A stretch of 62,967 nt of DNA, the filler included, from Octopus bimaculoides (taxonomy: Eukaryota), in assembly GCF_001194135.2 (NCBI RefSeq). It is 5 parts of 5 records of this genome, joined end to end, with 100 filler letters (N's around TTAATTAATTAA, not from the genome) between each part and the next. Parts side by side here need not be neighbours in the genome. Positions count along the whole stretch, not along the records: positions 1 to 11,115 come from NC_068993.1; positions 11,216 to 32,602 come from NC_068999.1; positions 32,703 to 35,091 come from NW_026332839.1; positions 35,192 to 54,619 come from NC_068996.1; positions 54,720 to 62,967 come from NC_069001.1. One strand, 5' to 3'. This document shows positions 643 through 55,225 of this stretch, piece after piece. Position numbers and translations under genes: made by a program. The notes under the pieces were generated by a model. It was given only the letters and a program-made list of their open reading frames with translations, searched no databases and had not been told where the DNA came from. The stretch's first letter is position 1, and each line of letters opens with the position of its first letter.

Positions 643-1053
643 ATAAAGATAAATTGAATATAGAGATGTACTATTGACAATCCAATAATTTATCCATATT
701 ACAATATTACGTTAAATACTATGAATATATCATATAAATAATTATAAAAACCATAAAAGGCCAACAAATTGTTTCGACTTCCATATATATTTTTTCTGAT
801 ATACATAATCATGGTTCCGTTATATATAAAGTCACTTCAGGGTCTTGGTTTAGAAAAAGACGAAATTCCATGTGAAAGGAGCTGAGATTATGTATATCAG
901 AAAAAATATATAAGTTGAAACAATTTGTTGGCCTTTTATGGTTTTTATAATTATTAATGTTATATATTAGATTCCTAGTATTTAATGTAATATTGTCATA
1001 TAAATAAATCATTTGATTGTCAATAGTATATCTCTATATTCAATTGATCTTTA
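643..1053. mobile_element. Inverted-repeat element (arms 643-810 and 886-1053, 75-nt spacer) carrying a hammerhead motif; probable Penelope-like pseudo-LTR derivative
   Basis: The arms are reverse complements with scattered mismatches and indels, e.g. CCATAAAAGGCCAACAAATTGTTTCGAC vs GTTGAAACAATTTGTTGGCCTTTTATGG. Confidence 0.75.
758..845 (-). ncRNA. Type I hammerhead ribozyme-like motif with a degenerate core
   Basis: Minus strand reads AGACC-CTGAAGT-GACTT-[48 nt]-AAGTC-GAAAC-AATTT-GTT-GGCCT. Stem I pairs 4/5 and stem II 5/5; stem III is AC/GU. A9 is replaced by U and the cleavage triplet is GUU. Confidence 0.55.
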
Positions 1054-1204
1054 TTATTGAGTTATACCAAGATTTATTTATATGGTATCCAACTGAAGTA
1101 CCAGTGAATTGGATACTTAACACACCCCTTTCGAGGATTTCTTTTCCTCATTTTGTTACTTTATATATATATATATATATATACACACACACACACACAA
1201 ACAT

Positions 1205-1365
1205 AAATGTGGAGTAGATGGAATAGGGACAACTGACGAAGGGATGTACTCTTTATGTTGCATGTCTCGTTTCTCCGTTTTTTTCATTGTTCGAAAAAAG
1301 TTTGTTTTCTGTTTTCGTTTCTCATTGTGTTTAACGTTTTCCTTGATGTCCTGTACCCATATATG
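1205..1365 (+). repeat. Unclassified dispersed repeat (GAGTAGAT...GACAACTGAYGAA...GATGTCCTGTACC); second copy at 34345-34520 (-)
   Basis: Collinear similarity between the two copies over about 160 nt. Confidence 0.65.
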
Positions 1366-1434
1366 CATGTATGTATACATATAGATGTAGGTATGTACAT
1401 ATATGTATGGATATATGCATATATTTATATATTC

Positions 1435-1590
1435 ATCATCATCATCATCGTTTAACGTCCGCTTTCCATGCTAGCATGGGTTGGACGATTTGACTGAGGA
1501 CTGATGAAACCAGGTTGCTATACCAGGCTCCAATCTGATTTGGCAGAGTTTCTACAGCTGGATGCCCTTCCTAACGCCAACCACTCATAT
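1435..1590 (-). mobile_element. 3' end of an RTE-related LINE/SINE with (GAT)n tail
   Basis: Minus strand GTTGGCGTTAGGAAGGGCATCCAGCTGTAGAAAC...GGACGTTAAACGATGATGAT; similar copies at 7370-7545 and 10415-10575. Confidence 0.7.
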
Positions 1591-51480: not shown

Positions 51481-53899
51481 ACACAAAAGCTGTATGTATG
51501 TATGTATGTATGTATGTATGTATGTATGTATGTATGTATGTATATATGTATANNNNNNNNNNNNNNNNNNNNNNNNNNNNNNNNNNNNNNNNNNNNNNNN
51601 NNNNNNNNNNNNNNNNNNNNNNNNNNNNNNNNNNNNNNNNNNNNNNNNNNNNNNNNNNNNNNNNNNNNNNNNNNNNNNNNNNNNNNNNNNNNNNNNNNNN
51701 NNNNNNNNNNNNNNNNNNNNNNNNNNNNNNNNNNNNNNNNNNNNNNNNNNNNNNNNNNNNNNNNNNNNNNNNNNNNNNNNNNNNNNNNNNNNNNNNNNNN
51801 NNNNNNNNNNNNNNNNNNNNNNNNNNNNNNNNNNNNNNNNNNNNNNNNNNNNNNNNNNNNNNNNNNNNNNNNNNNNNNNNNNNNNNNNNNNNNNNNNNNN
51901 NNNNNNNNNNNNNNNNNNNNNNNNNNNNNNNNNNNNNNNNNNNNNNNNNNNNNNNNNNNNNNNNNNNNNNNNNNNNNNNNNNNNNNNNNNNNNNNNNNNN
52001 NNNNNNNNNNNNNNNNNNNNNNNNNNNNNNNNNNNNNNNNNNNNNNNNNNNNNNNNNNNNNNNNNNNNNNNNNNNNNNNNNNNNNNNNNNNNNNNNNNNN
52101 NNNNNNNNNNNNNNNNNNNNNNNNNNNNNNNNNNNNNNNNNNNNNNNNNNNNNNNNNNNNNNNNNNNNNNNNNNNNNNNNNNNNNNNNNNNNNNNNNNNN
52201 NNNNNNNNNNNNNNNNNNNNNNNNNNNNNNNNNNNNNNNNNNNNNNNNNNNNNNNNNNNNNNNNNNNNNNNNNNNNNNNNNNNNNNNNNNNNNNNNNNNN
52301 NNNNNNNNNNNNNNNNNNNNNNNNNNNNNNNNNNNNNNNNNNNNNNNNNNNNNNNNNNNNNNNNNNNNNNNNNNNNNNNNNNNNNNNNNNNNNNNNNNNN
52401 NNNNNNNNNNNNNNNNNNNNNNNNNNNNNNNNNNNNNNNNNNNNNNNNNNNNNNNNNNNNNNNNNNNNNNNNNNNNNNNNNNNNNNNNNATATATATATA
52501 TATATATATATACATACATACACACAAATATACATATATACATACACACACATATACACACATACACATTTGTGCGTTTATCTATAAAATACAGTAATAA
52601 AATATATGCTAAGACACACACATGCACATACACACATATATTCGCACAAATGCACACACAGATAAGTTCATATATGTGCGCGCGCGCGCGAATATGTGTT
52701 TCTTGCTTTTAGCTAAAACGACGCGCTGATTCATACATATCTATATACAATGCATGCGCATACACTTATATACATATATATTTGTGTGTTTGTATGCATG
52801 CGTGTATATGTATATATATTTTGTCTCAGGAGTATTGACCTAGATTTTGGTCGTAGTTAAAGCTTTTATCAGGGAAAACTTTCCTCTATCTAAAAACCAA
52901 GCAATATTAAAAAAACAAACAAGCGTAAAATAAACCGTTTCTGCGCTTATAAAGCTTCATGCTTGGTTGGGTCCTAACTATGCATGAAGTATTTTCTCAT
53001 AACTCCAAAAAGCATCACCAATAACTGGTTAGGAATAGAATTTTAGCTATATTAGCATACGGACATACATACATACACTACCCCGCACACACACATGTAT
53101 GTATATTTGGAAGCATGTATCTGTGTGTGTGTGTGTGTGTGTGTGTGTGTAGATTTAATTTATTTTACAAACGTTTAAAGCCAGAAAGAATTACACATTG
53201 TATGACGTGCTATTGATCATTTTTAGAGTTCTTATGGTCACTTTCGTTCTCTTATGGTCACTTTGCTTGTGTTTACCTTTTGCCAGTTCGCTTTTTGGGT
53301 AGTTCTGTGCCAGGCACTCAAAGGAGGTGGTCTACCCACCTCACTTGCGCTCTCAAGAGTATCTCCGTGTCGGGGATCTTGTGTTGCGAAGTGATTTTCA
53401 AAGGCCGTTCCTGTGGAACGGGTTTAGCCTTTTGGCGTAACGTTCGTAAACATTTCGCCATAAGAATGGTGGATTAGTGTTGGACATGGGAAGAAACAGA
53501 AAGAAACAACAATAGGGATCCATTATATGCTCACTCGATTTATAGTAAATAGAAGCTAAATTCTCAATCAAATCAGACCGAATTTTCTTGAACAGTACAA
53601 TGTGTGTATATACAGTAAGATTTTTATGCTCACGTCGTTTTTGATCATAGATAAATCGGATTAAAACTGTCCTTGGGCTAATCAATGGCAATAATAAGAA
53701 GAAAAACTTCAAATATAGAATGAAAAAAAAACACAAATCACCCTTTTTGGAATTTACAATCTCTAGTTTAAACCACATCTAAATTGGTGCATTTATTATT
53801 TCCAGATAATTTGTCCAATTTTCATTATCAACTTCCATTACATCAAATCACTCTATATTTTCCTTTTGTCTGTCTCTCTCTCTTAGCTTGCTCTCCTCT

Positions 53900-54065
53900 A
53901 TTTGCTTCGTCTCTCTCTCTCTCTATCTCTCTCTCTTTCTCTCTCTCAATCTCTCTCTCTCTCTCTCTCTCTCTCTCTCTCTCTCTCTCTCTCTCTCTCT
54001 CTCTCTCTCTCTCTCTCTCTCTCTCTCTCTCTCTCTCTCTCTCTCTCTCTCTCTCTCTCTCTCTC
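53900..54065. repeat. (CT)n microsatellite
   Basis: Directly visible. Confidence 0.95.
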
Positions 54066-54859
54066 TTTGTGATATGCAGCACTTTTATCGTTAGAAAACT
54101 ACACACAAGGGACTTGGTGGTAGAAAATATTTAATGCAGTTTTGATAGAGTTTCAATGTACACATACATCAACCATTGCGAATGTATGTTTTGCGATGCA
54201 AGTATGTATGAATGTGTATGTATGTATGTATGTATGTATATATGCATGCATGTATGTATGTATGTATGCATGTATGTATGTATGTATGTATGTATCTATG
54301 TACGTACGTACGTATGTATATCTGTCTGCATGTATTCCTATCTGTCTGTATGTATTCATGCCTGTCTGTCTGTATATATGTATGCATGCATGTATGTAGG
54401 CCTGTATGCATGTGTGTATGTGTGTATGTATGCATGATTGTATGTATGTATGAATGTATATATGTGCATGTATATCTGTATGTAGGTATGTCTGTATGTC
54501 TATCTGTTTGCATGTATGCCTATATGTCTGTCTCTATGGATGTATGTATGTGTGTGTATATATGTATATCTGCATGTGTGCATGTACGCATGTTTGTCTG
54601 TATATATACACATATATATNNNNNNNNNNNNNNNNNNNNNNNNNNNNNNNNNNNNNNNNNNNNTTAATTAATTAANNNNNNNNNNNNNNNNNNNNNNNNN
54701 NNNNNNNNNNNNNNNNNNNTTTACAGGTTGGCTCGGTTTAACACTCATTTCAGTCGTAGTTAAATGGTTTAACACAGTGACACTTGGCCTCTTGCTGCGC
54801 AACGTCTCCTCTTGTCATAGAATGGTGTTTTACAAATACTTCCGCCATATTTTTCAAAA

Positions 54860-54967
54860 TATAACGTGCTCTGGGTTCAATCCCACTTCGTGGCACCTTG
54901 GGCTAGTGTCGTCTACTATAGCCTCTGGCTGACCAAAGCCTTGGAAGTAAATTTAGCAAACGGAAAC
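54860..54967 (+). mobile_element. SINE family A fragment, truncated by the inverted-repeat element
   Basis: GGTTCAATCCCAC...ACCTTGGGC...CCAAAGCC...CGGAAAC, then an abrupt switch. Confidence 0.7.
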
Positions 54968-55225
54968 CGAAATTAATATTTTCTTACCGAAAATATCTGT
55001 TTCTCATCAGTACAGACCGTTGGATAAATACAATTTAGAAGAATCGCACATTAAGTTGTACGTCACAAGGAAAGCACGTGTGTACGGTTCTAATAAATTA
55101 TATTATATTGTGACGTACAACTTAGTGTGCGATTCTCTAAATTGTATTTATCCAACGGTCTGTACTGATGAGAAACAGATATTTTCGGTAAGAAAATATT
55201 AATTTCGAAACATAGGTTTACAGAT
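54968..55225. mobile_element. Near-perfect inverted-repeat element (arms 54968-55068 and 55108-55207) with a hammerhead
   Basis: The arms differ by one substitution and one 1-nt indel by eye; 39-nt spacer. Confidence 0.88.
55158..55225 (+). ncRNA. Type I hammerhead ribozyme, intact core; predicted cleavage after 55218
   Basis: TCTGTA-CTGATGA-GAAA-cag-ATATTTTC-ggtaa-GAAAATAT-taa-TTTC-GAAAC-ATAG-GTT-TACAGA. Stem I 6 bp plus G.U; stem II 4 bp plus an 8-bp distal hairpin; stem III AC/GU; GUU triplet. Confidence 0.8.

What the first reader, a model, noticed from the sequence alone, without database searches (positions are those of the whole stretch)
643..55225. Three unrelated head-to-head inverted-repeat elements, each encoding a hammerhead ribozyme with a long stem II
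SEEN: three foldbacks of about 260-450 bp (643-1053, ~47076-47525, 54968-55225) share no obvious primary sequence but have one architecture. Each has CUGANGA/U, a 4-5 bp stem II closed G-C and carrying a long (about 27-59 nt) insert, GAAAC, a 4-5 nt loop, then GUH. The ribozymes point outward from the centre. Stem II differs in all three (GACTT/AAGTC, GATTC/GAATC, GAAA/TTTC) yet pairs fully, which looks like covariation. ESTABLISHED: Penelope-like elements carry type I hammerheads with short stem III in their pseudo-LTRs and often leave inverted partial pLTR copies; PLE ORF pieces are present in this window (33037, 61430). INFERENCE: a set of short, non-coding, ribozyme-bearing PLE derivatives (retrozyme-like). 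Transcripts would form long dsRNA trimmed by self-cleavage, or the fold-back would switch the ribozyme off. I cannot tell from the sequence alone whether these families are already described.
Basis: partly seen in the sequence, partly recalled or inferred. Interest (0 to 1): 0.85.

Follow-up and report, generated by a model that had tools for sequence, protein, structure and literature searches.

The report
Octopus Penelope ends with long-armed hammerheads
Three fold-back repeats in an octopus genome are most likely short, dead leftovers of Penelope-like jumping genes in a known insertion pattern, and the predicted self-cutting RNA motif they carry has an unusually long second arm that a published search pattern for this motif would miss.

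Summary
The three fold-backs and their hammerhead-like motifs are real (4 motifs in the window against 0.08 in shuffles). Only one arm of each has a complete core; E1's core has U at position 9 and E2's helix I is 2 bp. The genome is an Octopus species.

The head-to-head layout is the published footprint of Penelope-like element (PLE) insertion: a 5'-truncated copy plus an inverted 5'-truncated copy in (TA)n. I found it in 6 of 81 ORF-bearing PLE loci.

E3 belongs to a high-copy family. Its common variants keep helices I and II and make helix III palindromic, as in dimer-type PLE hammerheads. They are not retrozymes: no tandem units. A read-through transcript would fold back and block the ribozyme.

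The new point is helix II, a folded hairpin of 35, 58 and 69 nt, against 10-27 nt in 42 ORF-linked PLE hammerheads and at most 24 nt in the published descriptor. Linkage to an ORF, cleavage, and E1/E2 copy number are untested. Verdict: a structural variant of a known system, interest 0.33.

The parts
643..883 (-). E1 longer copy (3' end points left into a CA/TA microsatellite); 817-883 is its extra 5' part, which forms the apparent spacer
   Evidence: the CUGA core lies at 840, inside the 'spacer'
757..846 (-). E1 hammerhead-like motif: core CUGAAGU 840-834 (U at position 9), helix II region 833-776 (58 nt), GAAAC 775-771, loop AAUUU, GUU 765-763, helix I 5 of 6 pairs
884..1054 (+). E1 shorter inverted copy, 5'-truncated inside helix II; only the 3' half of the motif (GAAAC 917-921, GUU 927-929)
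   Evidence: 85% identical to the left arm
1055..1160 (+). One-sided extension of E1's right arm up to (TA)n; candidate PLE 'tail' and/or another fragment; holds a hairpin with CUGAAGU...GAA but no helix III
   Evidence: identity as a tail is inferred
47059..47283 (-). E2 left copy, ending in (TA)n; complete core: CUGAUGA at 47258, helix II region 47251-47183 (69 nt), GAAAC, palindromic helix III ACAAUUGU, GUA 47173-47171, helix I only 2 bp
47284..47316 (.). E2 spacer (which arm it continues is not known)
47317..47540 (+). E2 right copy, ending in (TAT)n/(TA)n; CUGAUGA at 47342 and long helix II kept, but C for G12 at 47418
   Evidence: 83% identical to the left arm
54874..54967 (+). SINE-like repeat joined to E3's left arm through a GAAA microhomology; both are clipped at the joint
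54968..55107 (-). E3 longer-5' copy: 55069-55107 is its continuous upstream part; CUGAUGA at 55010; cut off at G12 (54968)
   Evidence: joint 55069-55108 on opposite strands in X1, near-identical joints and a loose end before 55108 in X13
55108..55375 (+). E3 inverted copy with a full 3' end running into TA-rich simple sequence; member of a high-copy family
55158..55225 (+). E3 type I hammerhead motif: 7-bp helix I, CUGAUGA 55165-71, 35-nt helix II (4 bp, 2x2 loop, 9 bp, 5-nt loop), GAAAC 55207-11, loop AUAG, GUU; predicted cut after 55218
33046..33816 (-). Context, not linked: C-terminal piece of a Hydra-type PLE ORF with an Asn-rich insert; no hammerhead behind it
61586..61819 (-). Context, not linked: small Hydra-type PLE ORF fragment

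Best explanation
The three fold-backs are likely dead, heavily 5'-truncated insertions of Penelope-like retroelements, each made of a 3'-end copy joined head-to-head to a shorter inverted copy, and each carries a predicted dimer-type hammerhead ribozyme whose helix II region is 35-69 nt long. Inferred mechanism: the element's GIY-YIG endonuclease nicks AT-rich or (TA)n DNA; its reverse transcriptase starts near the RNA's 3' end and stops after 150-300 nt; a second copy is laid down in the opposite direction (self-priming or template switch, as proposed in PMC3846280). Only the hammerhead-bearing 3' end (pLTR) is left. In the parent element the hammerhead would cut tandem transcripts as a dimer through its palindromic helix III, perhaps with help from the element's protein (as shown for another PLE in PMC11167929). 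In these leftovers a read-through RNA would fold into one long hairpin that buries the core, so they are probably inert. Shown: geometry, motif, fold of helix II, E3 family variation. Inferred: parent ORF, insertion steps, cleavage.
For: Geometry. Arms are unequal at the centre and the 'spacer' continues one arm (E1: core inside the spacer; E3: joints and loose ends in two organisms). One other E3-family contig has its inversion at a different point (55108-55216, depth 40.5). The same head-to-head layout occurs in 6 of 81 ORF-bearing PLE loci; L079 has outward hammerheads at +4926 and -2834. In print: head-to-head is 'most frequently observed' (PMC3846280); dual min-HHRs 100-700 bp apart on opposite strands (PMC4209133); inverted 5'-truncated copy typical (PMC8557442).

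Target. TA-type simple repeats at 5 of 6 outer ends.

Family. 595 and 228 contigs of two organisms lie on E3. Summed depth is 62,000-86,000 at the core and 1,100-1,700 at the 5' end, where long contigs show 36-67 (not a copy number).

Structure. 6 of 6 paired positions that vary in at least 5% of DNA depth keep the pair (55158, 193, 194, 196, 198, 220). The commonest loop III variant (55215, about 70%) makes ACAUAUGU, and other variants give ACAUGU, ACCAGGU, ACCGGU (self-duplexes of -4.6 to -8.3 kcal/mol). No row is listed for the 15 core positions. Helix III matches ORF-linked PLE hammerheads. PLEs are 6.83% of the O. vulgaris genome.
Against: No ORF was seen attached to any of the three families: no genome is held and the loose ends shown are only 30 nt. 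The arms have no real DNA similarity to the 81 PLE loci (best E 0.002-0.045, AT-rich). They lack the GCTC..GAGC(A/G/T)C motif found behind the hammerhead in 27 of 40 of those loci, so they are probably not of that Hydra type. The 5' fall in depth can also come from divergent upstream sequence. Core invariance is weak statistically: p 0.005 against the adjacent flank chosen after looking, but about 0.13 against all 183 non-ribozyme positions between 55117 and 55367 (23 variable; my arithmetic), and 3 rows were hidden. Two RNA-only variants (55185, 55203; 6 of 14 reads, 2 starts) break helix II pairs. Only one alternative inversion point was seen. RNA: 38 and 16 reads, none 99% alike to this copy, no pile-up of ends at the predicted cut.
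Confidence: 0.7

Rival explanations
1. E1-E3 are members of short, ORF-less families (non-autonomous PLE derivatives, retrozyme-like) that are transcribed as units and moved in trans by a PLE's enzymes; the inversion still arises at insertion.
For: No ORF sequence is attached in the window. The E3 family is very abundant and several subfamilies differ upstream of the ribozyme (loose ends before 55158 and 55165). PLE termini can act in trans (PMC3846280) and retrozymes are proposed PLE derivatives (10.64898/2026.07.22.740005). No match in the Craig et al. consensus files for the short motifs tried.
Against: No tandem units. Depth falls about 50-fold toward the 5' end. Short-helix-III motifs are the PLE type, not the canonical retrozyme type (PMC7229834). 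Little RNA, where retrozymes are described as intensively transcribed (2 runs only, about 6% of each read).
Confidence: 0.2
2. They are fold-back DNA elements (MITE-like, TA target) that happen to contain hammerhead sequence.
For: Long inverted repeats next to TA; E2's two outer ends are nearly symmetric; a fourth fold-back without a core exists.
Against: The centre belongs to one arm; E3-family copies mostly cover one arm only and one inverts elsewhere; base changes keep pairing on one strand only, as expected for an RNA; three families would need the motif independently.
Confidence: 0.04
3. The host has kept these hairpins as functional dsRNA (editing substrates or small-RNA sources) with a switchable ribozyme.
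For: Whole-element folds of -184 to -215 kcal/mol. Many A>G differences fall in E3's helices. Extensive A-to-I editing in octopus is recalled, not tested.
Against: E1 and E2 arms have drifted 15-17% apart; one arm of each element is crippled; no read of this E3 copy at 99% likeness in two RNA runs; the common A>G changes are in DNA contigs too.
Confidence: 0.04
4. The motifs are chance matches in AT-rich inverted repeats.
For: E1's core is non-canonical and E2's helix I is 2 bp; Rfam finds nothing.
Against: 4 observed against 0.08 expected; three sit in the same position in fold-backs; E3 family variants keep the fold.
Confidence: 0.02

Closest known systems
Minimal type I hammerheads (min-HHR) in PLE pseudo-LTRs (Cervera & de la Pena 2014, PMC4209133)
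   Same: Type I topology, CUGANGA...GAAA...UH core, G10.1-C11.1, short helix I, tiny palindromic helix III; pairs on opposite strands 100-700 bp apart already noted there.
   Different: Helix II region 35-69 nt with internal loops; their descriptor allows 3-7 bp stems and 3-10 nt loops (at most 24 nt). E2 and E3 lack the extra base after A9; E1 has U9.
Head-to-head inverted pLTR insertions of EN+ PLEs (Arkhipova et al. 2013, PMC3846280; Craig et al. 2021, PMC8557442 Fig. 2; Penelope-13_HM)
   Same: Direct copy plus shorter inverted 5'-truncated copy, 3' ends outward, simple-repeat target, possible one-sided tail.
   Different: Here truncation is so deep that no ORF remains, and the parent ORF is not identified.
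Hydra-clade PLEs, including Hydra-1_Obim (PMC8557442)
   Same: (TA)n target; helix III pattern (ACAAUUGU and ACAAUUUGU occur in L011/L021/L043 and L004); Hydra-type ORF pieces occur in the window.
   Different: Loop 2 is 3-10 nt in the published Hydra table; no sequence match to Hydra-1_Obim's hammerhead by eye; downstream GCTC..GAGCAC motif absent.
Spike-moss PLE-X1 hammerheads (PMC8557442 File S2)
   Same: Long loop 2 (35 and 29 nt), flagged as deviating: a precedent for long helix II in a PLE.
   Different: Plant, endonuclease-less, rDNA-targeted elements; unrelated sequence.
Animal non-LTR retrozymes (PMC7229834; 10.64898/2026.07.22.740005)
   Same: Short, non-coding, type I hammerhead, AT-rich.
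   Different: Retrozymes are head-to-tail tandem units with canonical hammerheads giving circular RNAs; these are single head-to-head pairs.

Membership tests
PLE minimal type I hammerhead | CUGANGA and GAAA core with NUH cleavage triplet | tested here: met
   E2 left and E3 right exact; E1 left has U9 (not met for E1); second arms incomplete
PLE minimal type I hammerhead | Helix II opened by G10.1-C11.1 | tested here: met
   all three
PLE minimal type I hammerhead | Short, palindromic helix III | tested here: met
   E2 ACAAUUGU; E1 ACAA-U-UUGU; E3 family majority ACAUAUGU though this copy has ACAUAGGU
PLE minimal type I hammerhead | Helix I of 3-7 bp | tested here: inconclusive
   E3 7 bp; E1 5 of 6; E2 2 bp (2 bp also in D. 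virilis Penelope)
PLE minimal type I hammerhead | Helix II 3-7 bp with loop of 3-10 nt (published descriptor) | tested here: not met
   35, 58, 69 nt against at most 24 nt and 10-27 nt in 42 loci
PLE minimal type I hammerhead | Self-cleavage (as dimer or protein-assisted) | not testable with these tools
   no pile-up of read ends in 54 RNA reads, too few to judge
EN+ Penelope-like element | RT plus GIY-YIG ORF upstream of the hammerhead in long copies | not testable with these tools
   no genome held; window ORF pieces not adjacent
EN+ Penelope-like element | Inverted 5'-truncated copy at the 5' end | tested here: met
   same in 6 of 81 ORF loci
EN+ Penelope-like element | Insertion in AT-rich or (TA)n sequence | tested here: met
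   5 of 6 outer ends; target duplications cannot be read in microsatellite
EN+ Penelope-like element | Dispersed, frequently 5'-truncated copies | tested here: inconclusive
   E3: depth falls about 50-fold 5'-ward, partly explicable by divergence; E1, E2 not tested
EN+ Penelope-like element | Optional 30-40 bp one-sided tail | tested here: inconclusive
   E1 right arm extends about 100 nt; 5 RNA reads join microsatellite to E3's last ~45 nt
Hydra clade PLE | Hydra-type ORF (WFNPP, no CCHH) linked to the hammerhead | not testable with these tools
   as above
Hydra clade PLE | GCTC-N4-26-GAGC(A/G/T)C motif behind the hammerhead (my own marker, 27 of 40 loci) | tested here: not met
   absent from E1-E3
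Non-LTR retrozyme | Head-to-tail tandem units each with a complete hammerhead | tested here: not met
   no direct copy in the window
Non-LTR retrozyme | Abundant linear and circular monomer RNA | tested here: inconclusive
   38 and 16 family reads, no joints; small circles could be lost in such libraries
MITE / fold-back DNA element | Symmetric terminal repeats around a fixed centre shared by copies | tested here: not met
   E1 and E3 centres continue one arm; another copy inverts elsewhere

The most novel reading that the evidence does not exclude
Octopus carries a lineage of short, ORF-less Penelope derivatives, thousands of copies strong, built around a distinct long-helix-II hammerhead that standard descriptors and Rfam miss; the long hairpin is a working part (binding site for the reverse transcriptase, or an editing-sensitive switch on cleavage), and it has been rebuilt with different sequence in at least two or three families.
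Probability: 0.2. Interest if true: 0.6.

Novelty: new variant of a known kind. Interest (0 to 1): 0.33.

Why it matters
What may be useful is that an abundant octopus repeat family holds a conserved hammerhead with a helix II too long for the published min-HHR descriptor and unseen by Rfam on this stretch. Hammerhead counts in cephalopods, and some statements that a PLE family lacks a ribozyme, may therefore be under-calls. The family also offers natural variants (four helix III palindromes, a probable triple compensatory helix I) for testing the open question of what PLE hammerheads do and whether they work as dimers.

Tried and rejected
No whole genome is held, so genome-wide BLAST and copy extension were impossible.

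Rfam: microsatellite-driven miRNA matches fill the 150 of 307 rows shown; 4 chance matches on E3.

A 22-nt E3 pattern: 0 hits in viral contigs and genome contigs. The window's ORF piece as single query: no relative in metagenome contigs (60 candidates) or among longer proteins (1545 candidates). Alignments A1/A3: none in viral contigs. Pfam does not name the ORF pieces or the nine relatives tried as RT or GIY-YIG; Hydra typing rests on motifs read against PMC8557442's supplement.

A shared TTAGAACCG motif about 82-85 nt before the core in E3 and Hydra-2_Amil looked like a link; GAACCG was in 0 of 42 loci, so it is dropped. Naiad 'HHR_half_core' elements of Octopus: the part of Naiad_Obim's end that I saw does not resemble E1-E3; Naiad_Ovul's 3' end was not read. 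A type III or antisense hammerhead using the upstream UUUCGUC of E1/E2 was checked by hand and gives no helix I/III.

Arm-versus-arm 'covariation' in E2 (45 of 48 cells paired, no double change on the left-arm structure) is not used, since both arms come from one event. Earlier-findings look-ups were empty; one search listed 8 of 225 notes from other genomes, none on this feature. PMC5785218 is not held. No tRNA gene in the window.

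
Full report
CONTEXT. The window is 35% G+C, rich in microsatellites and gaps. Its UTP6 gene (2927-4708, minus; Pfam) clusters at 90% with proteins named from Octopus sinensis and O. vulgaris, so this is an Octopus genome. 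No assembly is held.

OBSERVATION. A relaxed type I hammerhead scan finds four motifs in the window, the three reported plus a short-stem one at 21948(-). Sixty block-wise dinucleotide shuffles give a mean of 0.08 and none reaches 4. The stems, insert lengths and loops are as described.

Three corrections matter. First, each element has only one complete core. E1's right arm begins inside helix II; E2's right arm has C for G12; E3's left arm stops at G12, fused to a SINE-like repeat through a GAAA microhomology. Second, E1's core is CUGAAGU and E2's helix I has two pairs; only E3 is textbook outside helix II. Third, the 'insert' folds as a long irregular hairpin continuing helix II (z -5.1, -4.0 and -1.7 for E3, E2 left, E1). 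E3 is unrelated to the others; E1 and E2 are marginally alike (11 of 300 shuffles). A fourth long fold-back, 41857-42175, has no core.

THE E3 FAMILY. I laid two DNA contig sets (organisms A and B) and two raw RNA runs on 55069-55420 (4 of the 24 runs listed). 595 and 228 contigs were laid. In X1 the summed depth is 62,000-86,000 over the core and 1,100-1,700 at the 5' end; long contigs show 36-67. The tool warns this is no copy number, but the family is plainly high-copy. Of 43 variant rows, 40 are shown. None falls on the 15 core positions. That is p 0.005 against the adjacent 5' flank (9 of 22; window chosen after looking) but only about 0.13 against all non-ribozyme positions from 55117 to 55367 (23 of 183; my arithmetic).

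The better evidence is the kind of change. Six paired positions vary in at least 5% of DNA depth and all six keep the pair (five U-A to U.G, one G.U to A-U). If transitions fell at random about half would break a pair, so this is roughly 1 in 60 (my estimate). The majority loop III base turns ACAUAGGU into the palindrome ACAUAUGU; a 2-nt deletion and loose ends give ACAUGU, ACCAGGU and ACCGGU. These pair with themselves at -4.6 to -8.3 kcal/mol, while this copy's own version does not. A minor subfamily has three helix I 3'-strand changes (giving CACGAA), and loose ends before the core read UUCGUG, a full complement; the linkage is inferred from separate tables. Against: two RNA-only variants (6 of 14 reads, 2 starts) break helix II pairs.

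The joints show that E3's 'spacer' is the natural upstream sequence of the left arm, and one other contig inverts at a different point. RNA gave 38 and 16 reads, none 99% alike to this copy, on both strands, with no pile-up of ends and no joints; this is too thin to speak to cleavage.

COMPARISON WITH ORF-BEARING PLEs. The ORF piece at 33046-33816 has 2596 relatives at E up to 0.001, which carry the motifs of the Hydra PLE clade (read). With an alignment of five of them I fetched 81 loci. Several of the 21 misses hold short-stem motifs my filter dropped; among the 16 printed none is long. Helix III has the same pattern as in E1-E3. Six of 81 loci have a head-to-head inverted truncated copy; L079 has both hammerheads pointing outward around a junction at 3494/3501. 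So the layout is what ORF-bearing PLEs leave. However, E1-E3 have no real sequence similarity to these loci and lack a GCTC..GAGC motif present behind the hammerhead in 27 of 40 distinct loci. The two ORF pieces in the window are 6-14 kb from the nearest element. The parent clade is therefore open.

MECHANISM. Shown: geometry, motif, fold, family variation. Inferred: nicking at TA-rich DNA, reverse transcription from near the 3' end, early stop, and a second, inverted copy. The two ribozymes lie on opposite strands, so they cannot form the active dimer in one transcript. Forcing the hammerhead fold costs 61, 74 and 61 kcal/mol in the whole elements but only 4-6 in a single arm. A read-through RNA would thus be an inert hairpin. 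The ribozyme's work, if any, is done in the parent's tandem transcripts.

LITERATURE SEEN. PMC4209133: parts 1-2 of 4 of the text and the whole supplement PDF; it reports dual min-HHRs 100-700 bp apart on opposite strands, palindromic helix III, weak dimer activity, and a descriptor capped at 7-bp stems and 10-nt loops. PMC8557442: 12 passages, supplement parts 2, 52, 53 of 59 and term searches; inverted 5'-truncated copies, tails, (TA)n targets, Hydra clade, and spike-moss hammerheads with 29-35 nt loops. PMC3846280: passages; head-to-head is the commonest arrangement. PMC11167929: parts 1-2 of 4; protein-assisted cleavage, not needed for insertion in vitro. 10.64898/2026.07.22.740005: part 1 of 5 and passages; its supplements are closed. 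PMC7229834, PMC6765202: passages. PMC13282606: passages and a supplement search; PLEs are 6.83% of O. vulgaris in 190 families, no mention of ribozymes. Lunse et al. 2016 was seen only as a reference.

I found no description of long-helix-II hammerheads in octopus in ten searches or in three supplement searches, where line breaks can hide a motif. Repbase, Dfam, the O. vulgaris repeat library and subscription papers were not searchable, so the families may be catalogued without the ribozyme being noted.

VERDICT. Real feature, known architecture, most likely PLE 3'-end debris (0.7); non-autonomous families remain possible (0.2). The long helix II is a genuine but modest variant with a plant precedent. 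Interest 0.33; new variant of a known kind.

Noticed in passing
window 21912-21952 (-): A fourth, classical short-stem minimal hammerhead (CUGAAGA-G, 6-bp helix II, GAAAU-A-AUU, 4-bp helix I) between simple repeats; probably another PLE 3' end, no fold-back.
   Followed up: partly
L001-L081, e.g. L015, L019, L037, L049, L051: Hydra-type PLEs carry a GCTC-N4-26-GAGC(A/G/T)C motif 33-61 nt behind the hammerhead (27 of 40 distinct loci), twice in 15; (TA)n ends often fall just before one copy (30-75 or 100-125 nt). Possibly the two reverse-transcription start sites that define the PLE tail; I did not see it described.
   Followed up: partly
window 41857-42175: Fourth long fold-back (arms about 160 bp) with no hammerhead core, next to a LINE-like endonuclease fragment at 42233-42658.
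   Followed up: partly
window 1083-1118 (+): Hairpin GUAUCCAA/UUGGAUAC enclosing CUGAAGU...GAA, like a hammerhead that has lost helix III; shares the odd CUGAAGU with E1.
   Followed up: no
window 55186-55193 (+): E3's loop II reads CG|GUAAGA, like a 5' splice site; PLE termini are known to hold introns, but no RNA joint was seen.
   Followed up: no
window 33046-33843 (-); P0001, P0071: Octopus Hydra-type ORF pieces have an Asn-rich insert before the endonuclease, recalling the N-rich inserts of rotifer PLEs (PMC3846280); the O. sinensis relatives are annotated as 'uncharacterized' or 'myb-like' host proteins.
   Followed up: partly
window 2927-4708 (-): UTP6 homolog encoded as a single 589-aa open reading frame without introns.
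   Followed up: partly
window 54874-54967, 59558-59661, 2426-2533, 8227-8325: Four copies of a SINE-like repeat with a B-box-like motif, about 80% alike, ending in (TA)n.
   Followed up: partly
window 55193-55222: Common A>G differences cluster on the 3' strands of E3's helices and none on the 5' strands; wobble tolerance explains part, and editing written back by reverse transcription is an untested alternative.
   Followed up: no
L078-L081: PLE copies sit in contigs filed under bacterial genomes, most likely host DNA carried into those assemblies.
   Followed up: no
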